From an uncultured Candidatus Saccharibacteria bacterium (GTDB lineage: Bacteria; Patescibacteriota; Saccharimonadia; Saccharimonadales; UBA7683): a stretch of 41,475 bases of DNA. The notes below the pieces were generated by a model. That model had not been told where the DNA came from and made no database searches. It saw only the letters and a program-made list of their open reading frames with translations. A program made the position numbers and the translations under genes. Position 1 is the stretch's first letter. Every line of letters begins with the position of its first letter. Shown here piece by piece: positions 6,409-38,131 of this stretch. Location: the NCBI GenBank assembly GCA_964448015.1, contig CAYUUV010000001.1, positions 13,147-54,621 on the forward strand, written 5' to 3'.

Positions 6409-8187
6409 TTATGCGGCGATCTCGTAGTTCTTGAGCTTCTTCTTGGTGGTTTCGTCTGTCTTGTTTTGCAGCTTAAGAAGCTGTGCGTAAATACCGTTTG
6501 TTTTGGCAAGTTCGCTTGGCGCGCCCACTTCGTCAACTCGACCTTTTTTGAGGGTAACTATCTGATCAACCTCGGCGATGGTTGAAAGGCGATGCGCAAT
6601 AATCAGGGTCGTGCGGCCTTTCATGAGCTTTTCAAGTGCAGCCTGTACTTCGTGCTCTGATTTACTATCAAGGCTTGAGGTTGCTTCGTCTAAAATTAAA
6701 ATAGGCGCATCTTTGAGCAGTGCCCGTGCAATTGCAATTCGCTGTTTCTGTCCGCCAGAAAGCTTCATGCCTCGTTCGCCAACAAGTGTACCTAAACCGT
6801 CTGGCAATTTCTGAACGAACTCCCAGGCGTTAGCCGCTTTGGCAGCTTTTTCAATATCTTTGGTTGTTGCGTTTGGCCTTCCGTAGGCTATATTTTCTCT
6901 AACCGTACCGCTAAACAAGGTTGCCTCTTGAAACACCACGGCTATGTTTTCGCGCAAACTCTTCTGAGTGACAGTTGTAATATCCGTACCATCAATTAAA
7001 ATGTTACCTGATTGCGGATCATACAGCCGCAGCAACAGATTTGTGATGGTTGTTTTGCCTTCTCCACTTTCACCAACCAAGGCAAGTTTACTGCCCGCCC
7101 GCTGCTCAAAGTTCACGTTCTTTAAAACAGGCTGTTTGTTTTCATAGGCAAAACTAACGTCGTGAAATGTGACGGTGCCTTCAGAAACCTTTAGTCGTGA
7201 GGCACTTACAGCATCAATGATGTCCGGCTGCTCGCTCATTGCTGCAAAGAAATCCTTGCTGTCGGCAATTGCTCGTTGGGTATTATCAACCAACCAGCTC
7301 ATGCTGAAAAGTGGCAAACGAATCAAAACTCCGTACTGAATCAGCAGCACCGTTTCACCGACCGTGAATTTGCCATTGGCGGCTTCCCAGAATATATAGG
7401 CATACACAAAGCCGAAAATAACGTTCAGAACAAGTCGGCGGTAGACATCTTCTTTGTGCCACAAAAGCGACTGCGGATAGGTTGTCTTCACTGTTCTGTG
7501 CATCATTTTAGAAAAGAATGAAGCCTCAGATTTTTCAGAAGTATAACTTTTGGCGACTTTTATCTGGCCAACCACTTCAGCGAAGCGACCGCTGGCAATA
7601 TCGGTATTTTCATTAATATCTTGTTGATATTCCTGCCACTTTTTACTGGTTCGCGAGGTAAACCACAGCACTATTGGGTAGAGTGAAAGAAATAGCAGCG
7701 CAACAACCCAGCTATAACGCGCCACCACAACCAGAGTAAATACGGTACTTAAAATAAACTGTAAGAAGTTGTTACCGAACATATTTACGAACTGTGTCAG
7801 GCCGTAAATTGAACGGTTGAGCCGGCTGATAATCTTGCCTGTCAGTTCCGTTGAATAATAACGCTGACTGAGACTGAGCAGGTGTTCGTAGTACTTTGTC
7901 GAAAGAAAGTGCCGCAACTTGGCCGACATAATATCACCGTAATACCCTGAGATATTGCTGATAATGGTCGAACCAGCATCAGTCAAAAACAGTATGAAAA
8001 CGATCACCAGCACCGGCATCAATTCACTGTGACCACCAACAACACTGGGTAGTCGATCAATCGCCATTTTGGTTAAAATTGGCTGTGTTTGGTTCAGTAA
8101 AGCAATGGCCACCGAGCCAAGCGAAACGCCCAGGTAATACGGCCACAAATGCCGCGCAAATTTAAAAATCTGTCCAATACTCTTCAT
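6409..8187 (-). CDS. ABC transporter, fused permease/ATP-binding protein (exporter type)
   Basis: 592 aa. Six-helix N-terminal domain, Walker A GESGEGKTT, signature LSGGQKQR, Walker B ILILDEATS. The start overlaps the pheT stop by 1 nt (TAATG). Confidence 0.9.
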   Translation of the reverse strand: MKSIGQIFKFARHLWPYYLGVSLGSVAIALLNQTQPILTKMAIDRLPSVVGGHSELMPVLVIVFILFLTDAGSTIISNISGYYGDIMSAKLRHFLSTKYYEHLLSLSQRYYSTELTGKIISRLNRSIYGLTQFVNMFGNNFLQFILSTVFTLVVVARYSWVVALLFLSLYPIVLWFTSRTSKKWQEYQQDINENTDIASGRFAEVVGQIKVAKSYTSEKSEASFFSKMMHRTVKTTYPQSLLWHKEDVYRRLVLNVIFGFVYAYIFWEAANGKFTVGETVLLIQYGVLIRLPLFSMSWLVDNTQRAIADSKDFFAAMSEQPDIIDAVSASRLKVSEGTVTFHDVSFAYENKQPVLKNVNFEQRAGSKLALVGESGEGKTTITNLLLRLYDPQSGNILIDGTDITTVTQKSLRENIAVVFQEATLFSGTVRENIAYGRPNATTKDIEKAAKAANAWEFVQKLPDGLGTLVGERGMKLSGGQKQRIAIARALLKDAPILILDEATSSLDSKSEHEVQAALEKLMKGRTTLIIAHRLSTIAEVDQIVTLKKGRVDEVGAPSELAKTNGIYAQLLKLQNKTDETTKKKLKNYEIAA

Positions 8188-10922
8188 TACACTTGCTCCG
8201 CTTGTAGTTGCTGATGGGCATGCCAGCTCATCTGTTCAATCAGCTTGCTTATTTCATCTGTAGTTAGTGTACGCTCATGATGCGTGAAGGTAAATCGGAA
8301 TGATACGTTTTTACTTTCTTCTCCATCTTTTTGGAAGATGCTGAGTGGTCGCATCTGCCACTGAAAGTCAACTGATTGCAACACTTCTTTCATTACAGCT
8401 TCAAGCTGTGCGAATGATACATCACCGCGCACTCGCAGCGTGAGATCTTGTTCGGTTGAAGGATACTTTGAAAGCGGTTTGTACCCTTCAAGGTATCTGT
8501 TTTCTTCAAAGAAGCTTGGGCCGTCGAGCGCACATAATGCTCCAGCTGTATATTCTGGTAATTTGAAGGCTTCTGCAACCGATTCTTTGAACTCCCCGAC
8601 AATACCAATCATGCCACCTCGATCGGTTGCGTTCATAATATATGCTGAGCGTTTCAAATCGAAGGGTTGCAATGCTTGTAGTACATTGTCGTCATCAGCC
8701 GGCTCGAGTCTATACGATATACCAAGCTTATTGAGCAACTCATCTACCGTTTTGAGCATGCGAAAATATGGTGCTCCTGGTTGTACTTTTGCACTTGCGT
8801 AGACCATCTCAAGACTGTTAATTTCATCAGGAAGACCTGTTTCTTCGTCTATGACGGCCTTGTTGTGGCCTTTCCCAATCTCAAACAAGGTAAATTCATC
8901 ATGGCCAGCTTTTATGTTTGGATGTACTCTATCGAGCAAACTGGGCAATAAACTGAGTCTGTAGTATTGCAAATCTGGACTCAGCGCATTTCTAATGGTA
9001 AATGCCTGCTTAGAATCTTGGCCCGCTTTTTTCAAAAGATTACCATGCACAAAGCTATACCCGAGCAGTTCATTAGCTCCGGCTCGCGCTAGAATATGTC
9101 TAATTTCTGACTTTAATGATCTCAGCGAGTCTGGTGTGACCGGCTTGATGCTTCGCTTCGGCAAGGCCATCGGCAACTGGTTAAAGCCGTACAGGCGACC
9201 GATTTCTTCTACAATATCTTCTTTAATCTCAAGATCGGTGCGCCAGAATGGTGGTCGCACCTCGATAGGACCGGAGGCAACATGAGCGTCGATTTCGACA
9301 TTGTTCAGTAATGTCACGATCTCTTGGTCGGTGAATTTTGAGCCTAGACGATCGTTGATGAACTTTGTTTCAATTTCGATGTAGTTATCTTGATTATTGA
9401 TTATTGATTGTTGATTATTGCTATCGACAATGGTGCTGGCTTGTTTGGCTCCAGCTAGTTCTTCAAACATTGTGATAGTTTTTGTCATCACAGGCGGAAG
9501 CTGCGAGGCTGGCTGGCCTTTGGTGAAACGCGTGACGGCATCGGTGAAGATACCGTGGATCATGCTGGTTTTTCGGATGTTGTACATATCAAAAGTGGCG
9601 CACTCGAGCACCACTCGCGTGGTGTTTGCGTCAACTTCAGAATTGCCACCGCCCATCACACCGCCAAGTGCAATCGGACCATCAGAATTACAAATTAAGA
9701 CTGCATCTTTGTGTGGTTCAATTTCTTTGCCATCAAGCAGCGTCATTTTTTCACCAGCTTTTGGCTTTCTGACAATAACCTCTGCAGTTTTGTCATTCTC
9801 CGACTCGCTGCGCCCCGTGGAGTATTCTTCGGGGATCGGAGAATCTAGTTTATTACTGGATCCTCTGGTCAAGCCAGAGGATGACACTAGAGGGGTGCTG
9901 ATTTTATCAAAATCAAACACATGTAGCGGCTGCGCCGTAAGCAACATCATATAATTTGTAATATCAACCACGTTATTAATTGGCCGCACCCCGACTCGCT
10001 TCAAATAACTCTGCAACCAAATCGGACTCGGCGCAATCTTCACATCTTCCAAAACAACCGCCATATACCGCGGACACAGCGCGGGATCTTCTACGCTCAC
10101 GCTAAGAAGATCGGAGTTATGAGGTTTGAGTGATGAGGTATGAGTCTCGACATCTTCATCTTGATTCTTGATTCTTGACTCTTGACTCTGCGTATACCAG
10201 CTTGGGCTGGTAAAGCTTCGGTGTTGTATCCCCGCAATTTCCCGAGCCACACCAAGATGCCCAAAGCCATCAGGCCGGTGCGTAAACATCTTATTTTCAA
10301 TTTCTAAAATCGTATCATCAAGATCATACAAATCTTTGAATGGTGTCCCAACAATACTGTCATTCTCCGACTCGCTGCGCCCCGTGGAGTATTCTTCGGG
10401 GATCGGAGAATCTAGTGATTGACTGGATCCTCTGGTCAAGCCAGGGGATGACAAATCCTGCGGACCAATCTCCAAAATACCAGAATGATCATCTCCCAAC
10501 CCTAGTTCAGCAAGACTCGCCAACATGCCGTTACTGAGCTGACCACGTAAATCGCGAGCTTCAAGCACGAACAACTCTTTTTCACCATAACTCGCCGGCA
10601 CAATTGCACCCGGTGGAATCCACGCTACCAGTAACCCTTCGCGAACATTCGGCGCGCCGCAGACCACTTGTACATAGCCGTCTTCATCACGCGCGACATC
10701 CTTCACCGCGCCACCGTCATCAACCTTACAAAGTGAAAGCTTGTCGGCATTCGGATGCTTCTCACAGCTAACAACTTTCGCCACCACAACGCCTTCATAC
10801 TGCTTTGAAAGATCCGTCACACCCTCAATGCCGCCAAGCCGTTCCGTCGCCAGCTTCACCAACTCATCAGTAGGAATATCAACATCCGTAAACTGCTTCA
10901 CCCAATTTAAACTAACTTTCAT
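8187..10922 (-). CDS. pheT: Phenylalanine--tRNA ligase beta subunit, carrying several in-frame repeat insertions
   Basis: 911 aa. N-terminal tRNA-binding domain (KVVSCEKHPNADKLSLCKVD), B3/B4 and B5 regions, GVMGG motif. Confidence 0.95.
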   Translation of the reverse strand: MKVSLNWVKQFTDVDIPTDELVKLATERLGGIEGVTDLSKQYEGVVVAKVVSCEKHPNADKLSLCKVDDGGAVKDVARDEDGYVQVVCGAPNVREGLLVAWIPPGAIVPASYGEKELFVLEARDLRGQLSNGMLASLAELGLGDDHSGILEIGPQDLSSPGLTRGSSQSLDSPIPEEYSTGRSESENDSIVGTPFKDLYDLDDTILEIENKMFTHRPDGFGHLGVAREIAGIQHRSFTSPSWYTQSQESRIKNQDEDVETHTSSLKPHNSDLLSVSVEDPALCPRYMAVVLEDVKIAPSPIWLQSYLKRVGVRPINNVVDITNYMMLLTAQPLHVFDFDKISTPLVSSSGLTRGSSNKLDSPIPEEYSTGRSESENDKTAEVIVRKPKAGEKMTLLDGKEIEPHKDAVLICNSDGPIALGGVMGGGNSEVDANTTRVVLECATFDMYNIRKTSMIHGIFTDAVTRFTKGQPASQLPPVMTKTITMFEELAGAKQASTIVDSNNQQSIINNQDNYIEIETKFINDRLGSKFTDQEIVTLLNNVEIDAHVASGPIEVRPPFWRTDLEIKEDIVEEIGRLYGFNQLPMALPKRSIKPVTPDSLRSLKSEIRHILARAGANELLGYSFVHGNLLKKAGQDSKQAFTIRNALSPDLQYYRLSLLPSLLDRVHPNIKAGHDEFTLFEIGKGHNKAVIDEETGLPDEINSLEMVYASAKVQPGAPYFRMLKTVDELLNKLGISYRLEPADDDNVLQALQPFDLKRSAYIMNATDRGGMIGIVGEFKESVAEAFKLPEYTAGALCALDGPSFFEENRYLEGYKPLSKYPSTEQDLTLRVRGDVSFAQLEAVMKEVLQSVDFQWQMRPLSIFQKDGEESKNVSFRFTFTHHERTLTTDEISKLIEQMSWHAHQQLQAEQV
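9390..9424. repeat. Heptanucleotide tandem repeat (TTGATTA-like, about 5 units) inside pheT
   Basis: ttgatta ttgatta ttgattg ttgatta ttgctat. It encodes the low-complexity NNQQSIINNQD stretch, and the frame is preserved. Confidence 0.8.
9791..9886. repeat. 96-bp composite palindromic element (TGTCAT...ATGACA) in frame in pheT, copy 1
   Basis: TGTCATTCTCCGA...TCGGAGAATC, spacer, TGGATCCTCTGG-tcaag-CCAGAGGATGACA. It is 32 codons long and encodes SSSGLTRGSSNKLDSPIPEEYSTGRSESEND. Confidence 0.9.
10160..10187. repeat. Heptanucleotide tandem repeat (CTTGATT x2, CTTGACT x2) inside pheT
   Basis: Read directly. It lies in the low-complexity segment QSQESRIKNQDEDVETHTSSLKPHNS. The flanking G/T-rich stretch 10118-10146 is partly complementary to it. 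Confidence 0.8.
10358..10453. repeat. 96-bp composite palindromic element (TGTCAT...ATGACA) in frame in pheT, copy 2
   Basis: 91 of 96 nt identical to copy 1 by direct comparison. It encodes SSPGLTRGSSQSLDSPIPEEYSTGRSESEND. Confidence 0.9.
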
Positions 10923-11575
10923 TTCAATATCTCCTGTATTTTTTGAGCAACGGCATCAGCAATTTTCTTATGACCCTCTACGGTAAGGTGTATGCCATCC
11001 TTACCTGGCTGAGCCAGATTTGCTGCATTAAGATAAGATACCTGTTGTTGCTTTAATAAATCCTCAAGCACCAAGCCAAGCTGACGTGATTTTTCAGCAC
11101 TTTGAGCATTGTATGTATCGCCATAATATCCAGAAAAGAGCGGCGCGGAATCGTTGATGAATGGAGGACTTATTACGAGAATCTTCGAGTCGGATGCTTG
11201 TTCTTGAATAAGGTTGATGTACTCAGATATGCTGGCTGCAACATCCTGTATTGACTTATTATATTGGATCTTTAAATCGTTTGTTCCCAGCATTATGATA
11301 ATCAGTGCAAATTCATCGTGTGACTGAAGATACGGCTTGAAGTAATCAAGACCATTTCTAAAAGTTTTATTTTTATTGTAATGCTCAAAGTTAGTATTTC
11401 TACCTCCGAGACCCTCTTCAAATATTTCGTAATCCTTGCCTAGTGATTCTTGTACTCTCCCTGGCCACCTAGCATCAAGACTATACCGCCCCGCGTAATT
11501 TTTGTCATCACTCTGGCCCCAAGTATTGGAATCTCCGTAACAGAGTATTCTTTTGATATCCTGATCAAGAATCAT
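10919..11575 (-). CDS. SGNH/GDSL-family hydrolase
   Basis: Block I ILCYGDSNTWG, block III GTND, C-terminal DGIHLT. ATGA overlaps at both ends. Confidence 0.8.
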   Translation of the reverse strand: MILDQDIKRILCYGDSNTWGQSDDKNYAGRYSLDARWPGRVQESLGKDYEIFEEGLGGRNTNFEHYNKNKTFRNGLDYFKPYLQSHDEFALIIIMLGTNDLKIQYNKSIQDVAASISEYINLIQEQASDSKILVISPPFINDSAPLFSGYYGDTYNAQSAEKSRQLGLVLEDLLKQQQVSYLNAANLAQPGKDGIHLTVEGHKKIADAVAQKIQEILK

Positions 11576-11898
11576 AAGTCAGCCTCCTCAATTAGTGGGT
11601 AGATGTCGACAGCGACTTCTTCATACGGGTGGGCTTTTTTTAGCGCCGCAACGATTTCTTTGGCATCTTCGCGGTTACACAGTACCTCAATTCGTTCTTC
11701 TTGAACTGATTCCAGTTTTCCAGGTTCGCCAATGTGTGGATCAGCATTTTTTGAAGGCAAAAATCGTCCTATTCCCGTCACCGAATAGCTACAGAAAGTG
11801 TACTCACCAAGTTTTCCCGCACCAGCCGAGCCTAACACCTGGCGAATATCGTCCGCATTTTCAGTTGGTACAAACGTCACAATTTTTACCCTGCTCAT
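11572..11898 (-). CDS. Small PII-fold-like protein resembling the YqfO/NIF3 insert domain
   Basis: 108 aa from ATG 11898 (MSRVKIVTFVP...). The VPxxxxxxVxxALxxAGAG...Y..C pattern supports the call. ATGA overlap with the upstream gene. The family assignment is from memory only. Confidence 0.45.
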   Translation of the reverse strand: MSRVKIVTFVPTENADDIRQVLGSAGAGKLGEYTFCSYSVTGIGRFLPSKNADPHIGEPGKLESVQEERIEVLCNREDAKEIVAALKKAHPYEEVAVDIYPLIEEADL

Positions 11899-12314
11899 GA
11901 GAAATTCTCCGTTTCGAAGATTGGGGGATCTTGAGTGTAATTGGTGAAGCGGAGCCATGTTGGAATGATGAGGTAGTAGTTTTGACCAGATTCGCCGGCA
12001 AACTTTTTCGCTGCAGGAACTCTTTCAAAATGAAGGTTGATGCGGTCTTGGTATTCAGTCTGATTGACTTTCTCGACCACACCTTCAAGCTGCACCGTTT
12101 TGGGGCCATCAAACCCAACAACTAGCGCAATCTTATTATTTACAGCTATATTTGCTGCTTTTCGTGTTTTTTCATTGGTCGCAATCATCAGCCTAAAATC
12201 ATCATCAACTGAGAAGCCGACCGTCGCCGCCTCTGGCTGCTCATCATTACCAACCGTCGCAACCACACAGGTTTCAAAGTGGTTCAGAAATTCTTTAACA
12301 TCTTGAATATTCAT
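11895..12314 (-). CDS. Pyridoxamine 5'-phosphate oxidase family (FMN-binding split-barrel) protein
   Basis: About 139 aa with a ...CVVATVGNDEQPEAATVGF......LMIATN..TRK..NI pattern. ATG 12314 overlaps the NYN-gene stop (TGATG). Confidence 0.7.
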   Translation of the reverse strand: MNIQDVKEFLNHFETCVVATVGNDEQPEAATVGFSVDDDFRLMIATNEKTRKAANIAVNNKIALVVGFDGPKTVQLEGVVEKVNQTEYQDRINLHFERVPAAKKFAGESGQNYYLIIPTWLRFTNYTQDPPIFETENFS

Positions 12315-12991
12315 CACTTTTTCTCCTGTTTTTTAGCCTGAGATACATTGACTTTCTTTCCCTTTTTTGCTACACTTTTCTTATCACCATGTTTAGGCAG
12401 GCCTAAGGTTTCGAACCGACCGCTACTCCTAGACGATCGACCAGTCCTACCTAAGGTTTCGACCGACCGTACGGACTGGTTTTTTGATCGCTTATATTCC
12501 AGGGAGCCTTTAAGTTTATCTATTTGCACAATAAACTTCAGATAATCACGAAGGAGTTTTGAGAAGTTCCTGTTTGGCGTCATGACATGTAAAAGTTTCT
12601 GCTTCTCCATCAAATATTCGATCAAACAACGGAAGTCACCATCACCACTCACGATAATAGCCTTATCATAGGCGTGATACTTTTTGGCAGCCGCATACAG
12701 CACAACCTCTGCATCAACATTACCTTTGTGTGTCTTTTTACCACCTACGTCATACGCAATTGTTGGTTTGAAGACCAATTTATAACCGGCAGCAGATAAA
12801 TGCTCATAAAGCTGTTCGTTACCTGGCACTAGTCCAATAAAAAGGTAAGCTCTGTCAACGTTATATTTATTCTTAAGATATAAGCGAATCTTTTTAAAGT
12901 CTAGCTTCCAGCCTAGCGACTGTACGCCGAGATTCAAATTCTGACTATCTATAAATGCGTACGTAACCAAATTTTTGACCTTTTTGCTCAT
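12314..12991 (-). CDS. NYN (LabA-like) domain protein with a repeat-containing basic tail
   Basis: FIDSQNL...AYLFIG...DAEVVL...IVSGDGDF matches the NYN/LabA acidic-residue pattern. The tail VRSVETLGRTGRSSRSSGRFETLGLPKHG... is encoded by direct repeats. Confidence 0.75.
   Translation of the reverse strand: MSKKVKNLVTYAFIDSQNLNLGVQSLGWKLDFKKIRLYLKNKYNVDRAYLFIGLVPGNEQLYEHLSAAGYKLVFKPTIAYDVGGKKTHKGNVDAEVVLYAAAKKYHAYDKAIIVSGDGDFRCLIEYLMEKQKLLHVMTPNRNFSKLLRDYLKFIVQIDKLKGSLEYKRSKNQSVRSVETLGRTGRSSRSSGRFETLGLPKHGDKKSVAKKGKKVNVSQAKKQEKK
12402..12479. repeat. About 20-bp direct repeat plus hairpin in the 3' part of the NYN gene
   Basis: CCTAAGGTTTCGAACCGACCG (12402-12422) and CCTAAGGTTTCGACCGACCG (12450-12469). 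CCAGTCC (12441-12447) pairs with GGACTGG (12473-12479). The copies start 48 nt (16 codons) apart. Confidence 0.75.
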
Positions 12992-14010
12992 TTGAATTGC
13001 CTCAAGAATGCGAGTTTACCGCTGTTGAAGTGGCGGATATCTTCAATGTTGTACTTCATCATAACAAGTCGTTCTACACCAAAGCCCCAAGCAAAACCTG
13101 TGTACTTCTCAGGGTCTACACCGGCCATTTTTAACACATTTGGGTGAATCATACCGCAACCCATTAGTTCAATCCAACGTTCATTACTGCAGACTTTACA
13201 GTTCTGTCCTTCTGTGCAAAAAGGACATGTTAATGAAAGTTCAAAACTTGGTTCGGTGAACGGGAAGTAGAAAGGCGTAATTTTAGCCTCTGTAGGTTTA
13301 CCAAAGTACGTTGTCAGGAATGTCTTAAATGTTGCAACTAAATTACCGACTGTGACACCTGTGCCAACATACACACCCTCGGCTTGATGAAACGTATGTT
13401 CGTGACGTGCATCGAGATCTTCATTACGAAACGTTCTATCGACCGCCAAGACCGCGATTGGCTCGCCTTGCTCCAACTGCTCTTTTCGTGCTTTGATAAT
13501 ACGATTTTGCATGGTACTCGTGTGTGCTGGCGCAATAAGACCTTCTTCGGTCATAAAGGTATCCCAGTCATCCCGGGCTGGGTGGCCTTTTGGGAAGTTA
13601 AGACTTTCAAACATATGAAAATCGTCATCAATTTCCCGAGATTCCGAAACTTCAAAGCCCATCCGATAGAAGACGTCAGCGATCTTTTCTATCTCAGCTG
13701 ATATTGGATGAACTGTGCCATTTTCGGTCGATAACAACTCCGGCATCGATGCATTCACATCAAACGGAGCAGTCACATCAATGGGAGGTCTTTTGTCATG
13801 CGTCTTTTGTCCATCGTCTACAGCAAGAGCTTCTAGTTCTTGCTTGAGCTGATTTACCGCCTGGCCGAAGGCAGCCCGCTGATCTTCCGGCTGGTCTTTA
13901 ATTTTGCCATACAGTCCGCGAAGCTCTGGCGCACGCAAAATTGCCCGCTTATCTTCAAGTGTTTCAAGTTTTTTCAGTAACTGTTCTTTCGCCTTTTGAA
14001 TCTCTTCCAT
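12988..14010 (-). CDS. pheS: Phenylalanine--tRNA ligase alpha subunit
   Basis: 340 aa. Class II motifs HPARD, FRNE..D..H...FHQ.EG and GFA.G.G.ERL. Confidence 0.95.
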   Translation of the reverse strand: MEEIQKAKEQLLKKLETLEDKRAILRAPELRGLYGKIKDQPEDQRAAFGQAVNQLKQELEALAVDDGQKTHDKRPPIDVTAPFDVNASMPELLSTENGTVHPISAEIEKIADVFYRMGFEVSESREIDDDFHMFESLNFPKGHPARDDWDTFMTEEGLIAPAHTSTMQNRIIKARKEQLEQGEPIAVLAVDRTFRNEDLDARHEHTFHQAEGVYVGTGVTVGNLVATFKTFLTTYFGKPTEAKITPFYFPFTEPSFELSLTCPFCTEGQNCKVCSNERWIELMGCGMIHPNVLKMAGVDPEKYTGFAWGFGVERLVMMKYNIEDIRHFNSGKLAFLRQFK

Positions 14011-14039
14011 ATACTTACAATTCTACCTTATTTTGTATG

Positions 14040-14062
14040 AAAAAACCTCGCCCGTTGCGAGG
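14040..14062 (-). terminator. Attenuator terminator (helix 3:4) in the pheS leader
   Basis: Minus strand CCUCGC-AACGG-GCGAGG followed by UUUUUU, about 30 nt upstream of the pheS ATG. Confidence 0.7.
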
Positions 14063-14090
14063 TGTTTTGATTATCGACAAACAACCTCGC

Positions 14091-14138
14091 TTAGCGGGTT
14101 TCAAAAAAACTAAAAAAGAAGTTTGCCTGTGACATCAT
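14091..14138 (-). CDS. Phe-rich leader peptide MMSQANFFFSFFETR
   Basis: AUG AUG UCA CAG GCA AAC UUC UUU UUU AGU UUU UUU GAA ACC CGC UAA, read directly. It is below the ORF-track size cutoff. Confidence 0.6.
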   Translation of the reverse strand: MMSQANFFFSFFETR

Positions 14139-14209
14139 ATTTATAATACCACATCCGAACAAAAGGATGCTTGTGTATATCTCCTCTATATACGCTATAG
14201 TCATCTTTG

Positions 14210-14701
14210 ATGATTAGACCGGAAATACATTTTGCCCATATATCCGATAGATACGCCATTGCATATATCGATCAGCGGGCACAAACAGATGCTGGACGAG
14301 TCCAGTGTTCGCCTGATTTTATTGATCCGATATTTGAACATAGCTGGGAAGAGATATTTGATGCACGAACACGCTCTCGAGGTCATAGACAAATAATTGT
14401 AGCGAAACATTTTGGTGTAGTAATCGGGTTCGCGAACTTTTCATTTAGCAATTCACGATGCTGTTTGGTTGAAAGTATTGGCGTGACAGAACAGTATCGG
14501 AACCATGGAGTTGGTCAATCCCTTCTGCGTACCGTAATTAATGAGATCCCTGAGCCGAAAGAAAGAATTGCCGTAGAGATACCAAATCACTTCAGTGATT
14601 CAATAACCTTCTTTAAGCGTACGGGCTTTGAACCAACACACAGGAGATGTCTCACATCAGGAAAAAACGCAAGATTAGAACTTGATTTATCGTGTCGCTA
14701 A
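14210..14701 (+). CDS. GNAT-family N-acetyltransferase
   Basis: Motif A QYRNHGVGQSLL and a C-terminal FFKRTGF pattern. The ATG at 14210 follows the TTG used by the track. Confidence 0.75.
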   Translation: MIRPEIHFAHISDRYAIAYIDQRAQTDAGRVQCSPDFIDPIFEHSWEEIFDARTRSRGHRQIIVAKHFGVVIGFANFSFSNSRCCLVESIGVTEQYRNHGVGQSLLRTVINEIPEPKERIAVEIPNHFSDSITFFKRTGFEPTHRRCLTSGKNARLELDLSCR

Positions 14702-18259: not shown

Positions 18260-19591
18260 ATGGATGGGCAAACAAAGCTTTTTGAGTACTGTAAAGCGGT
18301 ACTCGACCGAAACGGTCTTGGCGGATGGACAAAACCAGCCCCACATTTATATCCCCATCAGTGGTTATGGGACAGCTGTTTCATCGCAATTGGACTGCGT
18401 CATTATGATGTCAAGCGGGCCCAAAAAGAAATCAAAAATCTCTTCCGTGGCCAGTGGAAGAACGGTATGGTACCCAACATTATTTATGGGTCAGAAAAAC
18501 AATATTCTGATGACATCTGGAACTCACCAATCTCGCACAATGCACCTCGTAAAATTAGAACCAGCGGCATCACCCAGCCGCCTATGATTGCCGAAGCTGT
18601 GCAGAAAATTGGCGAAATGTTGCCAGCAAAAGACCGGCGTGAGTGGTACAAAAGTATTTTTGATGACCTCGTTGCTTATCACGAATGGATGTATCGAGAG
18701 CGTGATCCGCACGGCGAAGGCCTCATCACCCTCGTACACCCTTGGGAATGCGGACTCGACAACAACCCGGGCTGGATGAGCGAAATGCGCCTCAATGAAC
18801 TGCCACTCTGGATCGCAACTATTAAAAAACTTCGACTGCACACGATATTTAATATATTTCGAGGAGAAACTAAGTATTTACCCGCCTATGAGCGCATCGA
18901 CGTAATTGATGCCCTCGGGCTCTACAGCATTGCGCGGCAACTACGCCGTAAAAAATATGAAACCCGGCTCATCCTCCGACACTCTCACTTATGCATTGAA
19001 GATCTGGCATTTAACTCTATTCTTATTCGCGCCAATACCGTGCTGATTGAGATTGCGCACGACATTAAACGTGAGGTCCCCGGCTGGCTGTACGAACGAA
19101 TGAGAAAGACGCCCCACGCACTTGAACTGCTGTGGAGCAATACACACCAGCAATACCTCAGTCGTAACTTTGATACCTTTGAACTGATTGGTGAGCCAAG
19201 TATTATGACTTTTCTACCGCTCTATGCAGGAAGTATTAGTAAACGGCGCGCTCATCAGTTGGTCGAACTACTCAAAATGCGAGATTGGAACACTCCATTC
19301 CCCATACCTTCGGTGCCAAAAACTTCAAAATCATTTCAGCCGCGGCGCTACTGGCAAGGCCCGACCTGGATCAACACGAATTGGCTGATTGCAGACGGCC
19401 TAACGAGATATGGGTATCACGAAGAAGCCGACTTAATCCGACAAAAGTCATTACAACTCGTTGCCGAACATGGCGCCTATGAATATTTCAACCCCCTCGA
19501 TGGCGCACCTGTTGGAGCCCACCCCTTCAGTTGGACCGCCGCACTCACCATCGACTTTTTACGAGAGACTCAATTCACAAACTTCAAATAG
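18260..19591 (+). CDS. GH63-like (alpha/alpha)6-barrel glycoside hydrolase (MGH1-like)
   Basis: 443 aa with HQWLWDSCF, GITQPPM, HPWECGLDN, YWQGPTWIN.NW and FSWTAAL motifs. Family assigned from memory. Confidence 0.7.
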   Translation: MDGQTKLFEYCKAVLDRNGLGGWTKPAPHLYPHQWLWDSCFIAIGLRHYDVKRAQKEIKNLFRGQWKNGMVPNIIYGSEKQYSDDIWNSPISHNAPRKIRTSGITQPPMIAEAVQKIGEMLPAKDRREWYKSIFDDLVAYHEWMYRERDPHGEGLITLVHPWECGLDNNPGWMSEMRLNELPLWIATIKKLRLHTIFNIFRGETKYLPAYERIDVIDALGLYSIARQLRRKKYETRLILRHSHLCIEDLAFNSILIRANTVLIEIAHDIKREVPGWLYERMRKTPHALELLWSNTHQQYLSRNFDTFELIGEPSIMTFLPLYAGSISKRRAHQLVELLKMRDWNTPFPIPSVPKTSKSFQPRRYWQGPTWINTNWLIADGLTRYGYHEEADLIRQKSLQLVAEHGAYEYFNPLDGAPVGAHPFSWTAALTIDFLRETQFTNFK

Positions 19592-22789: not shown

Positions 22790-23323
22790 TTAAAGCTTTA
22801 GTTGAGCAAGCTGCTGATTCAAAGTGGAGCGATTTTTCACTATGACCACCCTGTTCTGCGGCTGCTCCGCAAGCAGTGCGAGTATTCTTGGCTTATGCGA
22901 ACGCTTGAATTCAAACACTTTTTTGATCAGTTGGAGGTTGAACTGTTCCCGCCAGCCTTCAGGCATATCAGTGCGCGTATGAGTACCTCTATACATCATG
23001 CGTCTTTTCAAGACACCGTTTAGGGCAGTTGTGGTCGGATAGTCCAGAAAAATTACTAGATCCGCAGCCGGGATACGCAGATCAAGCGTACTTGTGTAAT
23101 TACCGTCCATAATCCACGCTGGCTCCTTGAGTAGTTCGGCAATATGTTTGCGCCACTGTTTGCATTTTTGATCAACATCATTACTCCACCGATTCTTTGC
23201 ATGCCAATCTTTATCCAGGTGCAATACTGGCAGCTTAGTTTGCTCTGCAAGCTTTATTGCTAGGGTACTCTTACCAGTCCCCGGGCAACCAATAAGTACG
23301 ATTCTTTTGACGGGCTGTTTCAT
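22790..23323 (-). CDS. P-loop NTPase, adenylate-kinase-like (topology-modulation-protein-like)
   Basis: 177 aa. Walker A GCPGTGKST, then LPVLHLD..W and WIMDGNY patterns. Confidence 0.8.
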   Translation of the reverse strand: MKQPVKRIVLIGCPGTGKSTLAIKLAEQTKLPVLHLDKDWHAKNRWSNDVDQKCKQWRKHIAELLKEPAWIMDGNYTSTLDLRIPAADLVIFLDYPTTTALNGVLKRRMMYRGTHTRTDMPEGWREQFNLQLIKKVFEFKRSHKPRILALLAEQPQNRVVIVKNRSTLNQQLAQLKL

Positions 23324-35883: not shown

Positions 35884-36676
35884 TGTGCGTCCCTACATCA
35901 CGCCGTCCAAACGCTGCACTGCCCAGTAGTACGACAATGATTGACATTATCACCAAGACACTAACGTTGCCCATATCTATTCCCTGCTTGATAGCCGTTG
36001 ATGCTTGATAGTAATGGAAGATCGATAGTGGATCGATATGCTTGAGCCACTCAACCTGCGCCGCAAATGAGGTCAGCAGGTAACTCCCGAATACATAGGT
36101 TGTCACAATCATTGTTGCCCAACCTTTTCTTCCTTGGCCAAAGCCAAGTCCAAGTGTCAGTGAGCCAGTTGCAATGGTTAACAGCAGACACATTAGCGTA
36201 CCCGCAATAAGCTTTTCAACTGGCATAGACTCGCCAATTGCCATAATGGTCAGAAAAATACCGATGAATAAGGCAGTGTGAACAAGAGTGAAAATAGCCA
36301 CCATGGCGACCCATTTATGTAATACAATTTTGCTGCGGCTCAGTGGCTGGGCTAGTAATTGATATAGTTTACCAGATGATTCTTCACTGGCACTCAGGCC
36401 AAGCGCCAGAATAATTGCCATGGTAATAGTCATCATTGGTATACGAAGATCAAACACGCCCGTCGCCACATAGCCAACAATATTTTTATAATCCTCCGTT
36501 GTGCCAGTAATGCTTTCTAACGCCTTGGGCATATTGGCAAAAAGTGTCCCAATTTGGTCTTTAATAGTCGGAAAGAAGGCAATGGTAATACCCGCCATCA
36601 CCACCAAACCAATCGACCAGCCAAATATGAACCAGCGTTTATCATAGAGTGTTTTCGTCATAAGATTTTTAAACAT
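35876..36676 (-). CDS. ABC-2-type transporter permease
   Basis: 266 aa, about six TM helices, 8-nt overlaps with both neighbours. Confidence 0.8.
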   Translation of the reverse strand: MFKNLMTKTLYDKRWFIFGWSIGLVVMAGITIAFFPTIKDQIGTLFANMPKALESITGTTEDYKNIVGYVATGVFDLRIPMMTITMAIILALGLSASEESSGKLYQLLAQPLSRSKIVLHKWVAMVAIFTLVHTALFIGIFLTIMAIGESMPVEKLIAGTLMCLLLTIATGSLTLGLGFGQGRKGWATMIVTTYVFGSYLLTSFAAQVEWLKHIDPLSIFHYYQASTAIKQGIDMGNVSVLVIMSIIVVLLGSAAFGRRDVGTHSA

Positions 36677-37583
36677 GATGCAGCTCCTCGTGTAATCCGT
36701 AGAGCTTTAAAAAGGTATCTTCCAGAGAAACACCTTTGATGGTAACGTCCGCCACCGGCTGCATACTGAGCCAGCGCAGCAGCGCTTTACCATTTTCGGC
36801 AGTAATAAAACGAAGCTCTGTATTGGTGTGCACCAGGACCTCAAGTTCTTTAAACGGCGGTATCTTCATCGGTTTTGTACCTTTTTCGCTGATCAGCCGC
36901 ACTTCTTTTTTATGACTATCCCGAACTTTTTTAATATCTATAATCTGAACGAGCTTCCCTTCTTTCATAAAAGCCACCTTGTCACAAATGGCCTGCACTT
37001 CAGATAAAATGTGTGATGACATAAAGACCGTTTTACCGCGCTTCACCCGTTCTTTGACAATGTCGTAAAATCTATTTTGCATTAAGGGATCGAGACCGGT
37101 CGTTGGTTCGTCTAGAATAAGAAGATCGGGATCGTGAAGCAGTGCCGCAATCAGCGCCACTTTTTGCATGTTGCCGCGAGAGAGTGTTCCGATCTTTCTT
37201 GCAAGATTTGCCTCAAGTTTTTTGGCTAGTTCCGTAATTTCTTTACTGACATTTTCAACGCCGCGAAGATTAGCGATAAATTCTAAATATTGCCCGCCGG
37301 TCAGATTTTCATACATTTCAAAATCACCCGCTAAATATCCTACCCTGTGCTTGATGTTCGTAGCATCTTTCACGCTGTCGAGACCAAATACTTCAATCGT
37401 CCCGCTAGTGGGCCGCATGAAATTCATAATTGTACGAATGGCGGTCGTTTTGCCGGCGCCATTCGGTCCAAGAAAACCAAATATTTGGCCAGGCTCAAGT
37501 TGTAGTGATACGTCTTCAATACCCCGAAACGACCCATATTGTTTGGTAACATTTTGCAGCGTCAGTGGTAATGCTTGTTTCAT
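36669..37583 (-). CDS. ABC transporter ATP-binding protein
   Basis: Walker A GPNGAGKTT, signature LSRGNMQK, Walker B LLILDEPTTGLD. Confidence 0.9.
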   Translation of the reverse strand: MKQALPLTLQNVTKQYGSFRGIEDVSLQLEPGQIFGFLGPNGAGKTTAIRTIMNFMRPTSGTIEVFGLDSVKDATNIKHRVGYLAGDFEMYENLTGGQYLEFIANLRGVENVSKEITELAKKLEANLARKIGTLSRGNMQKVALIAALLHDPDLLILDEPTTGLDPLMQNRFYDIVKERVKRGKTVFMSSHILSEVQAICDKVAFMKEGKLVQIIDIKKVRDSHKKEVRLISEKGTKPMKIPPFKELEVLVHTNTELRFITAENGKALLRWLSMQPVADVTIKGVSLEDTFLKLYGLHEELHHV

Positions 37584-37696: not shown

Positions 37697-38131
37697 TTAG
37701 TCATCAATGTAGGTGCGAACGTGAGGAATCCGGTTGATGGCGACGGCCGTCAGAGTTGCAATAACCGCAATAACATACAGACCAAAACCAATCGCCATGC
37801 CAACTGCGGCCGCATACCAGATGCTCGCCGCCGTTGTTAAATTACTTACCTTGCCCCTACGCTCAGATTTCAGAATAATGCCCGCGCCCAGAAATCCGAC
37901 TCCTGAAACAATTTGGGCAGCGATTCTTCCCGGATCACCGGTATCTAAATACTGCGACATAAAGGCAAATATCATTGAACCAACTATCACCAAACTCTGC
38001 GTACTAAGCCCGGCAGGTTTTTGTTTGAGCTCCCGTTCGAGACCAATCATGATACCGCAAAAAAGTGCGATCGCAATTTTAATCATAAATTCAACTTCTT
38101 GTGCGCCAAAAATGGTTGCAAAATATTCCAT
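37697..38131 (-). CDS. MgtC/SapB-family membrane protein
   Basis: 144 aa. GLERE....AGL.T..LV..GS and GFLGAG.I patterns. Confidence 0.85.
   Translation of the reverse strand: MEYFATIFGAQEVEFMIKIAIALFCGIMIGLERELKQKPAGLSTQSLVIVGSMIFAFMSQYLDTGDPGRIAAQIVSGVGFLGAGIILKSERRGKVSNLTTAASIWYAAAVGMAIGFGLYVIAVIATLTAVAINRIPHVRTYIDD

What the first reader, a model, noticed from the sequence alone, without database searches (positions are those of the whole stretch)
14040..14138. Classical Phe-codon leader-peptide attenuator in front of pheS
The minus strand encodes a 15-aa ORF, AUG AUG UCA CAG GCA AAC UUC UUU UUU AGU UUU UUU GAA ACC CGC UAA (MMSQANFFFSFFETR). Five of six consecutive codons are Phe. Three mutually exclusive helices follow it. 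Helix 1:2 is AACCCGC-UAA-GCG(A)GGUU and spans the stop codon. Helix 2:3 is GCGAGGU (14090-14084) with ACCUCGC (14063-14057), extended by UUUG/CAAA. Helix 3:4 is CCUCGC-AACGG-GCGAGG followed by U6. This is the same logic as the enterobacterial pheM/pheST attenuator: a ribosome stalled on Phe codons frees segment 2 to form the antiterminator. The leader ORF has no SD. An extended -10 (TGgTATTAT) sits only 4 nt upstream, so the leader may be translated from a leaderless or nearly leaderless transcript.
Basis: partly seen in the sequence, partly recalled or inferred. Interest (0 to 1): 0.65.

Follow-up and report, generated by a model that had tools for sequence, protein, structure and literature searches.

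The report
Phe leader-peptide attenuator upstream of pheS
A 14-codon, phenylalanine-rich mini-gene followed by switchable RNA hairpins and a terminator sits in front of the phenylalanyl-tRNA synthetase gene of a Saccharibacteria (CPR) bacterium. It most likely raises synthetase transcription when charged tRNA-Phe runs low, which is a textbook mechanism that I found no report of in this phylum.

Summary
On the minus strand there is a Phe-rich mini-ORF (five of six codons at 14120-14103 are Phe). Three overlapping helices (1:2, 2:3, 3:4) and a U6 tract ending at 14040 follow it, 29 nt before pheS (12988-14010).

It is not chance. This is the only 5-of-6 Phe-codon run in all six frames of the window, and the terminator is the top-ranked terminator-like site in the first 20 kb.

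Ten related Saccharibacteria loci carry the same unit before pheS:
- a fixed 14-codon frame (M-x4-FFF-x-FF-x-T-R-stop) that uses all three stop codons;
- four invariant pairing segments separated by variable spacers.

A -10 box ends 7-8 nt before the start codon in nearly all copies. The leader is therefore probably leaderless and, in the window, probably starts at the second ATG (14135).

There is no sequence homology to E. coli pheM or to Rfam Phe_leader, so this is an independent analogue.

Caveats:
- The helix cores never vary, so there is no covariation evidence.
- No usable transcript-end data exist.
- A conserved ancestral -10 box (14025-14020) lies between the terminator and pheS, so part of pheS transcription probably bypasses the attenuator.

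Verdict: a new member of a known kind, with no report found for CPR bacteria.

The parts
14143..14151 (-). P1: extended -10 TGgTATTAT, the promoter of the leader transcript. No good -35.
   Evidence: Sequence. The homologous copies have TATACT, TAAAAT, TACATT, TATAAT, TATGAT or TACAAT ending 7-8 nt before the start codon. The upstream gene is divergent, so a promoter must lie within 14139-14209.
14091..14135 (-). Leader ORF: 14 codons plus TAA, encoding MSQANFFFSFFETR. An extra in-frame ATG at 14138-14136 would give 15 aa.
   Evidence: The 14-codon frame is conserved in 11 of 11 copies. TAA, TGA and TAG are all used at the same stop position.
14103..14120 (-). Regulatory codon block: Phe codons 6, 7, 8, 10 and 11 (TTC TTT TTT AGT TTT TTT).
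   Evidence: The only 5-of-6 Phe-codon run in the window. TTC/TTT synonymous changes occur among relatives.
14094..14100 (-). Segment 1 (AACCCGC). It overlaps codons 12-14 and pairs with segment 2 or segment 4.
   Evidence: Folds. Pairwise identity is 97% across copies. The only change, CGC to CGT in L003, keeps a G-U pair.
14083..14090 (-). Segment 2 (GCGAGGTT), immediately after the stop codon. It is the 5' arm of the antiterminator.
   Evidence: Invariant GCGAGG in 11 of 11 copies. Masked when a ribosome sits at the stop codon.
14064..14082 (-). Variable spacer between segments 2 and 3, with an inner helix GUUU/AAAC (14082-14079 with 14067-14064).
   Evidence: Fold. The spacer is only 43% identical among copies, but each copy keeps some inner pairing.
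14057..14063 (-). Segment 3 (ACCTCGC). It pairs with segment 2 (antiterminator) or segment 4 (terminator).
   Evidence: Invariant CCTCGC.
14040..14051 (-). Segment 4 (GCGAGG, 14051-14046) plus the U6 tract (14045-14040). This is the 3' arm and tail of the intrinsic terminator. The loop AACGG is at 14056-14052.
   Evidence: Terminator scan. Fold -11.9 kcal/mol, z -4.6. Stem invariant and loop variable among copies.
14020..14030 (-). Conserved TAAGGTAGAAT. TAGAAT (14025-14020) ends 9 nt before the pheS ATG. It is probably the ancestral, near-leaderless pheS promoter P2; UAAGG might also act as a far-spaced SD.
   Evidence: Conserved in all leader-bearing copies. 70 of 90 Saccharibacteria pheS loci have a 5/6-or-better -10 hexamer 5-12 nt before the ATG, against 11 of 90 in a control window.
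12988..14010 (-). pheS (phenylalanyl-tRNA synthetase alpha subunit, 340 aa), the regulated gene.
   Evidence: Pfam tRNA-synt_2d, E 9e-79.
8187..12991 (-). Rest of the apparent operon: NYN (12314-12991), PNPOx-like (11895-12317), orf128 (11572-11958), GDSL hydrolase (10919-11575) and pheT (8187-10922). The reading frames overlap or abut.
   Evidence: ORF list and Pfam. The cassette between pheS and pheT varies among relatives.
14196..14701 (+). Divergent GNAT acetyltransferase gene (ATG 14210) with its own -10 box TATAGT (14196-14201) 8 nt before the ATG. It bounds the leader promoter region.
   Evidence: Pfam Acetyltransf_1, E 3.6e-11. Sequence.

Best explanation
This is a ribosome-mediated (leader-peptide) transcription attenuator that senses charged tRNA-Phe and controls read-through into the pheS...pheT operon of a Saccharibacteria bacterium.

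Proposed mechanism. All steps are inferred from sequence; none is shown experimentally.
1. RNA polymerase starts at P1 (extended -10 at 14151-14143), at or next to the A of the second ATG (14135). The 14-codon leader is therefore translated from a leaderless mRNA.
2. If Phe-tRNA is plentiful, the ribosome runs to the UAA at 14093-14091. Its footprint covers segment 2, segment 3 pairs with segment 4, and transcription stops at the U-tract (14045-14040).
3. If Phe-tRNA is scarce, the ribosome stalls with Phe codon 10 or 11 in the A site. It then covers segment 1 but not segment 2. Helix 2:3 forms before segment 4 is made, the terminator cannot form, and polymerase continues into pheS.
4. Without any ribosome, or with a stall at the early Phe codons 6-8, segment 1 is free. 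It pairs with segment 2 or segment 4, and both folds place a stem next to the U-tract. The default state is therefore termination.

A second, ancestral -10 box (14025-14020) just before pheS probably supplies basal pheS transcription that the attenuator does not control. The attenuator would then add a starvation-inducible share.
For: Anatomy:
- The anatomy is exactly as described.
- The helices and the whole leader fold far better than shuffles.
- It is the top-ranked terminator-like site in 20 kb and lies 5' of a gene, with only the mini-ORF upstream because the next gene is divergent.
- It is the only 5-of-6 Phe-codon run in the window, where 0.12 are expected.
- The gene downstream is pheS.

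Comparative evidence:
- 10 further loci carry the same unit before pheS: L001-L006, L035, L158, L199 and L200, all Saccharibacteria-type MAGs or contigs.
- The 14-codon frame is fixed, with Phe at codons 6-8 and 10-11, synonymous TTC/TTT changes and all three stop codons.
- Segments 1-4 are 97-100% identical, while the spacer, the terminator loop and codons 1-5 are 43-59% identical.
- 100% of cells pair in helices 1:2, 2:3 and 3:4, against 21-56% when the partner columns are slid.
- All copies keep helix 1:2 (-3 to -7 kcal/mol), 2:3 (-8.5 to -13), 3:4 (-10 to -12) and a U5-7 tract.
- The unit stays with pheS although the upstream neighbour differs: a divergent GNAT gene in the window, L003 and L200, and a co-directional upstream reading frame in at least L005, L006, L035 and L199.

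Geometry:
- Folds with the ribosome footprint masked give only 3:4 when the A site is on the stop codon.
- They give a pre-formed 2:3 when the A site is on codon 10 or 11.

Leaderless start:
- A TAnnnT box ends 7-8 nt before the start codon in 9 of the 10 relatives, and there is no SD.
- Other genes in the window have the same (T/G)GGTAnAnT-N6-10-ATG layout.

Precedents:
- E. coli pheM-pheST has 14 codons, five Phe codons, and identical segments 2 and 4 (GGAGGCT).
- Leaderless leader peptides precede leuS, trpS, alaS and thrS in Streptomyces (PMC8079986; PMC1262725).

Weak RNA hints from relatives:
- In L035, a metatranscriptome contig ends at 2963 and a 151-nt contig ends exactly at 2971, the last U of the tract.
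- In those two RNA runs (X10, X12) no contig covers 2972-3022; contigs of two runs of unknown type (X17, X18) do span it.
Against: - There is no covariation. All 17 core pairs are invariant apart from one G-C to G-U change, so the pair counts neither support nor test the structure.
- There are no transcript-end data. No RNA run holds the window.
- The RNA evidence from relatives consists of direction-less assembled contigs. Some start upstream of the predicted start site, and some run straight through the terminator into pheS.
- A conserved -10 box lies 9-10 nt before the pheS ATG, downstream of the terminator. The same feature occurs in relatives without the leader (L008, L201) and in most Saccharibacteria. 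pheS may therefore be largely expressed independently of the attenuator.
- In a read-through transcript the pheS AUG has no well-spaced SD; UAAGG lies 15 nt upstream.
- In most copies 2:3 is no more stable than 3:4, so antitermination relies on the kinetic order of folding.
- The element is confined to a narrow clade. It occurs in 8 of 185,579 species representatives and is absent from L007, L008 and L201, whose PheS is 74-76% identical to the window's.
Confidence: 0.75

Rival explanations
1. The leader is an independent small transcription unit. P1, the mini-ORF and the terminator form a self-contained gene for a small hydrophobic peptide or a short RNA. pheS is expressed only from the -10 box at 14025-14020, so the mini-ORF does not regulate pheS.
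For: A conserved, ancestral -10 box lies between the terminator and pheS. There is no well-spaced SD for pheS in a read-through RNA. In L001 about 70 extra bases, including another hairpin, separate the terminator from pheS.
Against: It does not explain several conserved features:
- Segment 2 is an invariant copy of segment 4, placed right after the stop codon so that 2:3 excludes 3:4.
- The repeated codons are those of the amino acid handled by the adjacent gene.
- The unit always accompanies pheS despite different upstream neighbours.
- The positions that do not pair (codons 2-5 and 12) vary freely, as expected for a leader rather than a functional peptide.
Confidence: 0.12
2. The unit acts mainly as a terminator or insulator that shields pheS from upstream transcription. 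The Phe-rich ORF is incidental T-rich sequence.
For: In L035-type and L006-type loci the upstream gene is co-directional. RNA-derived contigs there start upstream of the leader.
Against: In the window, L003 and L200 the upstream gene is divergent, so there is nothing to insulate against. The reading frame, the start codon 7-8 nt after a -10 box and the stop-codon position are all conserved, with three different stop codons. A 5-of-6 Phe-codon run is expected 0.12 times per window.
Confidence: 0.05
3. A protein or tRNA, rather than a translating ribosome, switches the same alternative helices. Examples would be a T-box-like element or an RNA-binding attenuation protein.
For: In Firmicutes pheS is usually under T-box control (general knowledge; PMC1262725). 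The helix cores alone do not say what triggers the switch.
Against: There is no Rfam match to T-box or to any other family, even at E up to 10. The leader is only about 96 nt, too short for a T-box. The conserved ORF with Phe codons at a fixed distance from segment 1 is unexplained by this model.
Confidence: 0.04

Closest known systems
E. coli pheM leader and pheST attenuator (gamma-proteobacteria)
   Same: - It regulates the same gene, pheS, and uses the same logic.
- The leader has 14 codons, five of them Phe, and the Phe block starts at codon 6 ([14 protein letters not shown] against MSQANFFFSFFETR).
- The stop codon lies just before segment 2.
- Segments 2 and 4 are identical in sequence (GGAGGCT in E. 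coli, GCGAGG here).
- An intrinsic terminator with a U-tract follows.
   Different: - No detectable sequence homology: a profile of the 11 Saccharibacteria leaders finds nothing in the E. coli locus at E up to 10.
- pheM has an SD and a 5' UTR, whereas this leader appears leaderless.
- The terminator lies about 215 nt before pheS in E. coli and 29 nt here.
- In E. coli the unit follows rplT; here it follows unrelated genes.
- Here a second -10 box sits between the terminator and pheS, and pheS and pheT are separated by inserted genes.
Leaderless leader-peptide attenuators before aminoacyl-tRNA synthetase genes in Actinobacteria (Streptomyces leuS, trpS, alaS, thrS; also mycobacterial poly-Cys leaderless uORFs)
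   Same: A short leaderless ORF rich in the cognate amino acid, followed in some cases (for example LeuL2 before leuS) by a hairpin plus U-tract, upstream of a synthetase gene (PMC8079986; PMC1262725; bioRxiv 10.1101/834739).
   Different: The phylum and the amino acid differ: those papers do not list a pheS example. There is no sequence relationship. Several actinobacterial cases lack a clear terminator, whereas this one has a canonical terminator.
Rfam Phe_leader (RF01859)
   Same: A Phe-codon leader plus terminator. It is the only attenuator family that cmscan aligned end to end with this region (model positions 1-125 on 14148-14037, minus strand).
   Different: The score is 15.6 bits against a gathering threshold of 55, with E = 8.2. 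That is not a match.
T-box leaders (usual control of pheS in Firmicutes)
   Same: Both control a synthetase gene through competing terminator and antiterminator helices that respond to tRNA charging.
   Different: There is no T-box match. The element is much shorter and contains a conserved translated ORF in place of a tRNA-binding scaffold.

Membership tests
Ribosome-mediated (leader-peptide) transcription attenuators | Short ORF in the 5' leader with clustered codons for the amino acid tied to the regulated gene | tested here: met
   A 14-codon ORF with 5 Phe codons before pheS. It is unique in the window and conserved in 11 of 11 copies.
Ribosome-mediated (leader-peptide) transcription attenuators | Intrinsic terminator between the leader ORF and the structural gene | tested here: met
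   A 7-bp stem with 5 G-C pairs, a 5-nt loop and a U6 tract. It is the top-ranked hit of the scan, folds at -11.9 kcal/mol with z -4.6, and is kept in all copies. Its function as a terminator has not been shown.
Ribosome-mediated (leader-peptide) transcription attenuators | Antiterminator helix that is mutually exclusive with the terminator, and a further upstream segment that can sequester it | tested here: met
   Helices 2:3 and 3:4 share segment 3, and helices 1:2 and 2:3 share segment 2. 100% of cells pair in 11 sequences. No covariation is available because the pairs never vary.
Ribosome-mediated (leader-peptide) transcription attenuators | Geometry: a ribosome at the stop codon masks the antiterminator arm, and a ribosome stalled on the regulatory codons leaves it free | tested here: met
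   Masked folds. With the A site on the stop codon only 3:4 forms. With the A site on codon 10 or 11, 2:3 is formed before segment 4 exists. The spacing is identical in all copies. The footprint size was assumed, not measured.
Ribosome-mediated (leader-peptide) transcription attenuators | Premature termination in vivo that is relieved by shortage of the charged tRNA | not testable with these tools
   No RNA run holds the window. Contigs from relatives' metatranscriptomes are only suggestive.
Enterobacterial pheM-pheST attenuator (as a homologous family) | Detectable sequence or structure homology to pheM leaders | tested here: not met
   An nhmmer profile of the 11 leaders gives no hit in the E. 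coli pheM locus L279 at E up to 10. No Rfam family reaches its threshold.
Enterobacterial pheM-pheST attenuator (as a homologous family) | Genomic context rplT-pheM-pheS-pheT, with an SD-led leader | tested here: not met
   The upstream gene is a divergent GNAT gene. There is no SD, and a -10 box ends 7 nt before ATG2. pheS and pheT are separated by four ORFs.
Rfam Phe_leader RF01859 | Score at or above the gathering threshold (55 bits) | tested here: not met
   15.6 bits, E = 8.2.
Leaderless leader-peptide attenuators (actinobacterial type) | Transcription start at the first base of the leader start codon | tested here: inconclusive
   A -10 hexamer ends 7-8 nt before the start codon in 9 of the 10 relatives, and the same layout occurs at other genes in the window. 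No start-site data exist, and RNA contigs in relatives extend further upstream.
T-box riboswitch | Match to the T-box covariance model (specifier loop, T-box sequence) | tested here: not met
   No hit in the window at gathering thresholds, and none in 13800-14400 at E up to 10.

The most novel reading that the evidence does not exclude
A lineage of Saccharibacteria invented a pheM-like attenuator independently. CPR bacteria generally have small genomes (PMC12641178), and Saccharibacteria are described as having limited biosynthetic capabilities (PMC7427843, abstract). The invention converged on the same geometry as E. coli: 14 codons, a Phe block from codon 6, and identical segments 2 and 4. 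It differs in being driven from a leaderless mRNA and in being stacked on top of the ancestral near-leaderless pheS promoter. If so, it would be the first ribosome-mediated attenuator that I could find reported for CPR. It would be evidence that a 70S ribosome loading on a 5'-terminal AUG can keep pace with RNA polymerase within about 100 nt in these organisms. It would also include a 'double lock': segment 4 can be paired by segment 3 or by segment 1, so only stalls on the last two Phe codons relieve termination.
Probability: 0.45. Interest if true: 0.6.

Novelty: new member of a known kind. Interest (0 to 1): 0.45.

Why it matters
I found no report of cis-regulatory RNA mechanisms in CPR/Patescibacteria in the library searched. 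A conserved, textbook-quality attenuator shows that at least one Saccharibacteria clade monitors tRNA-Phe charging and couples translation to transcription. For organisms described as having limited biosynthetic capabilities (PMC7427843), that is in effect a sensor of amino-acid supply.

The match with E. coli pheM in length and codon layout, without sequence homology, is a clean example of convergent design under the physical constraint of the ribosome footprint. The leaderless start and the tandem ancestral promoter offer a simple system for asking two questions: how leaderless initiation can be fast enough for attenuation, and how an attenuator is grafted onto an existing promoter.

In practical terms, the 14-codon ORF and the 96-nt leader should be annotated in these genomes, and the profile built here finds them specifically.

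Tried and rejected
1. Rfam over the whole window at gathering thresholds, and over 13800-14400 at E up to 10: no significant family.
It added only L158. A stricter 21-base pattern then gave 9 true stretches and 7 chance hits.
3. A search for a Phe-rich mini-ORF before pheS in 157 CPR pheS loci: outside the 11 copies there were only scattered hits without a terminator, such as L020 and L043. I read these as chance.
4. The conserved terminators before pheS in Dojkabacteria-type loci turned out to follow rplT. No Phe-rich mini-ORF with a terminator was found there.
5. Covariation counts: uninformative because the pairs are invariant.
6. RNA evidence: no RNA run holds the window. For relatives only assembled contigs were available, with no strand and unreliable ends.
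7. The idea that the hairpin terminates a gene on the plus strand was rejected. No plus-strand gene ends there, and the plus-strand T-tract is poor.
8. TAAGG at 14030-14026 as a normal SD for pheS was judged unlikely. It lies 15 nt from the AUG, and L001 has TAAGA while keeping TAGAAT.
9. Literature searches for attenuators, leader peptides or leaderless mRNAs in Saccharibacteria/CPR found nothing relevant.
Full report
**What is there.** Reading the minus strand of 13700-14500 confirms the finding base for base.
- An extended -10 box TGgTATTAT lies at 14151-14143.
- Two in-frame ATGs follow at 14138 and 14135.
- The codons then read TCA CAG GCA AAC TTC TTT TTT AGT TTT TTT GAA ACC CGC TAA, with the stop at 14093-14091.
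- Next come GCGAGGTT (14090-14083), a 19-nt spacer, ACCTCGC (14063-14057), the loop AACGG, GCGAGG (14051-14046) and six T (14045-14040).
- The ORF that starts 29 nt further on (14010-12988) is PheS (Pfam tRNA-synt_2d, E 9e-79).
- PheS is followed by overlapping ORFs: NYN, PNPOx-like, an unknown 128-aa ORF and a GDSL hydrolase. pheT comes last (8187-10922).
- The gene upstream is a divergent GNAT acetyltransferase (ATG 14210, plus strand). Any transcript of the leader must therefore start inside the roughly 70-nt divergent spacer.

**Is it more than chance?**
- The three helices fold as described: 1:2 at -6.9 kcal/mol, 2:3 at -14.5 and 3:4 at -11.9.
- Each has a z-score between -3.1 and -4.6 against dinucleotide shuffles. 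The whole leader has z -3.6.
- The hairpin plus T-tract is the top-ranked terminator-like site in the first 20 kb and one of about three strong ones in 40 kb. It lies at the 5' side of a gene, not the 3' side.
- The run of five Phe codons in six is the only one in any frame of the window. A first-order Markov simulation expects 0.12.

**Whose genome.** The closest PheS relatives (up to 82% identity) are all Saccharibacteria-type MAGs. A few carry obviously wrong bin labels. The window itself is found complete only in wastewater metagenome runs.

**Comparative evidence.** I collected 157 CPR pheS loci with upstream sequence, from one genome per species and from metagenome contigs, and scanned 400 nt upstream of each.
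- A Phe-rich mini-ORF followed by the same helices is present in L001-L006, L035, L199 and L200, and in L158, which was found by a DNA pattern.
- Aligned on the stop codon, all 11 copies share a 14-codon frame, M-x-x-x-x-F-F/L/T-F-x-F-F-x-T-R-stop. Synonymous TTC/TTT changes occur, and TAA, TGA and TAG are all used at the same position.
- Nine copies have ATG exactly at codon 1. Two have GTG there, and L158 also has an ATG two codons earlier. The window's second ATG (14135) is therefore the conserved start.
- Pairwise identity is 97-100% in the four pairing segments. It is only 43% in the 2-3 spacer, 47% in the terminator loop and 59% in codons 1-5.
- On alignment A2, 100% of cells pair in helices 1:2, 2:3 and 3:4, against 21-56% when the partner columns are slid. 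The pairs never vary, apart from one C-G to U-G change, so covariation is silent.
- That invariance is what one expects when each segment must pair with two partners and segment 1 is also coding.
- Every copy keeps the three helices and a U5-7 tract.
- The unit stays with pheS although the upstream neighbour differs. It is a divergent GNAT gene in the window, L003 and L200, and a co-directional upstream reading frame in at least L005, L006, L035 and L199.
- The unit is absent from L007, L008 and L201 (PheS 74-76% identical) and from all more distant loci.
- A specific 21-base pattern finds it in only 8 of 185,579 species representatives. The seven other matches are chance hits inside GC-rich sequence.

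**Leaderless start.**
- In 9 of the 10 relatives a TAnnnT hexamer (TATACT, TAAAAT, TACATT, TATAAT, TATGAT, TACAAT) ends 7-8 nt before the start codon, and there is no Shine-Dalgarno sequence. L200 has only a weaker TATTAA box 6 nt before its ATG.
- In the window, TATTAT ends 7 nt before ATG2.
- The window has two classes of gene start. One class has clear GGAGG-type SD sequences. The other has (T/G)GGTAnAnT ending 6-10 nt before the ATG, for example at 22790-23323, 36669-37583, 37697-38131 and the divergent GNAT gene.
- The leader belongs to the second class.

**Mechanism.** I folded the 96-nt leader with the bases covered by a ribosome made unavailable, assuming a 3' edge about 12 nt past the first A-site base.
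- With the A site on the stop codon, segment 2 is covered and only the 3:4 terminator forms.
- With the A site on Phe codon 10 or 11, segment 1 is covered and segment 2 is free. Helix 2:3 (-14.5 kcal/mol) is then the fold of the RNA that exists before segment 4 is transcribed.
- With no ribosome, or with a stall on Phe codons 6-8, segment 1 is free. Because segments 2 and 4 have the same sequence, segment 1 can close a stem with segment 4 around helix 2:3. That stem directly abuts the U-tract, so the default is still termination.
- This is the classical logic, with the last two Phe codons as the effective control codons.
- In most copies 2:3 is not more stable than 3:4, so the switch must be kinetic, as in the classical systems.

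- The 11 bases TAAGGTAGAAT (14030-14020) between the terminator and pheS are conserved in the leader-bearing copies.
- TAGAAT ends 9 nt before the pheS ATG.
- Across Saccharibacteria, 70 of 90 pheS loci have a 5/6-or-better match to TATAAT ending 5-12 nt (mode 9) before the pheS ATG. Only 11 of 90 have one in a control window.
- The leader-less relatives L008 and L201 have such a box too.
- In L001 about 70 extra bases separate the terminator from pheS. There the box stays next to pheS and reads TAAGATAGAAT.
- The box is therefore most simply the ancestral, near-leaderless pheS promoter (P2). The P1-leader-terminator unit was added upstream of it.
- It follows that the attenuator probably controls only part of pheS transcription. 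How pheS is translated from a read-through RNA, where its AUG is internal and the nearest SD-like UAAGG is 15 nt away, is unresolved.

**RNA evidence.**
- No RNA run holds the window.
- For L035 and L006, metatranscriptome assemblies exist, but only as direction-less contigs.
- In L035 the U-tract is at 2967-2971. One contig ends at 2963 and a 151-nt contig ends exactly at 2971. In those two RNA runs (X10, X12) no contig covers 2972-3022; contigs of two runs of unknown type (X17, X18) do span it.
- In L006 one contig runs from upstream of the leader through the terminator into pheS.
- In the strain variant seen in two of the L006-related RNA runs (X20, X22), all eight differences inside the leader fall in the spacer and the loop.
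- These observations are compatible with both termination and read-through. They prove neither.

**Comparison with known systems.**
- The E. coli pheM-pheST leader was retrieved and read. It has the same logic and a strikingly similar layout: 14 codons, five Phe codons starting at codon 6, a stop codon just before segment 2, and identical segments 2 and 4.
- There is no detectable homology, however. A profile of the 11 leaders finds nothing in the E. coli locus, and the only attenuator model that aligns, Rfam Phe_leader, scores 15.6 bits against a threshold of 55.
- pheM is SD-led, follows rplT, and lies about 215 nt before pheS.
- Leaderless leader peptides before synthetase genes (leuS, trpS, alaS, thrS) are described in Streptomyces (PMC8079986) and classical attenuators before trpS and leuS in Actinobacteria (PMC1262725). 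Leaderless poly-Cys attenuator ORFs are described in mycobacteria (bioRxiv 10.1101/834739).
- Each individual feature is therefore known.
- Searches of the held literature for attenuators, leader peptides or leaderless transcripts in Saccharibacteria or CPR found nothing relevant.

**Verdict.** The element is best filed as a new, independently evolved member of the leader-peptide attenuator class. It is an analogue of pheM, restricted to a narrow Saccharibacteria clade, probably leaderless, and stacked on an older promoter. I put confidence in the attenuator function at about 0.75. Its quantitative importance for pheS expression is open. Interest is moderate: the mechanism is ordinary, but the phylum is new and the convergence is neat.

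Noticed in passing
window 9791-9886 and 10358-10453 (inside pheT, minus-strand gene 8187-10922): Two 95%-identical copies of a 96-nt element lie in frame inside pheT, at aa 346-378 and 157-189. The element has inverted termini (TGTCAT...ATGACA) and a very stable fold (-38.7 kcal/mol). It encodes ...SSGLTRGSS..LDSPIPEEYSTGRSESEND. L007 and L010 have gaps at both sites. L200 has a different insert at both sites (...PAQAGIHGNELDSRL...RGND...). L004 has an insert at the first site only and a gap at the second. It looks like an in-frame palindromic mobile element, like the Rickettsia palindromic elements, and would explain the 911-aa PheT.
   Followed up: partly
window 14020-14030; also L001-L058 and L199-L232, just before pheS: pheS in most Saccharibacteria has a strong -10 box (GGTATAAT or TGTTATAAT type) ending 5-12 nt before its ATG. 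This holds for 70 of 90 loci against 11 of 90 in a control window. It implies a near-leaderless pheS mRNA, and the box persists downstream of the attenuator terminator in the leader-bearing clade.
   Followed up: yes
window gene starts at 18260(+), 23323(-), 26095(-), 37583(-), 38131(-), 14210(+): The window has a class of apparently leaderless genes. (T/G)GGTAnAnT ends 6-10 nt before the ATG with no SD. These sit alongside genes with canonical GGAGG SD sequences, such as pheT, GDSL and 467-1492.
   Followed up: partly
L059-L080 and L244-L278 (Dojkabacteria-type pheS loci), 60-100 nt before pheS: In these loci pheS follows rplT and a conserved terminator, AAGGACTC-loop-GAGTCCTTTTTT. The last codons and stop of rplT (AAA TCT CTG TAG AGTC) repeat the terminator's 3' arm and can pair with its 5' arm. 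In L069 both change together (AAATCCCTT with AAGGGACT...AGTCCCTT). This may be a translation-dependent terminator/antiterminator at the rplT-pheS junction.
   Followed up: partly
window 10919-12991; L001-L007, L200, L201 downstream of pheS: pheS and pheT are separated by a cassette that differs between close relatives: NYN nuclease-like, PNPOx-like, orf128 and GDSL hydrolase in the window, other combinations or only about 0.5 kb elsewhere. The pheS-pheT junction looks like an insertion hot spot.
   Followed up: partly
window 17031-17002 (-) and 24048-24019 (-): Two perfect TTGACA-18-TATAAT promoters with a TG extension (12 of 12 matches). No tRNA gene and no Rfam family was found in the window, so what they drive is unknown.
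   Followed up: no
window 14152-14169: A small inverted repeat, CATCC-N8-GGATG, lies immediately upstream of the leader's -10 box, in the divergent promoter spacer. It is not present in L200, which shares the same neighbours. It is probably not significant.
   Followed up: partly
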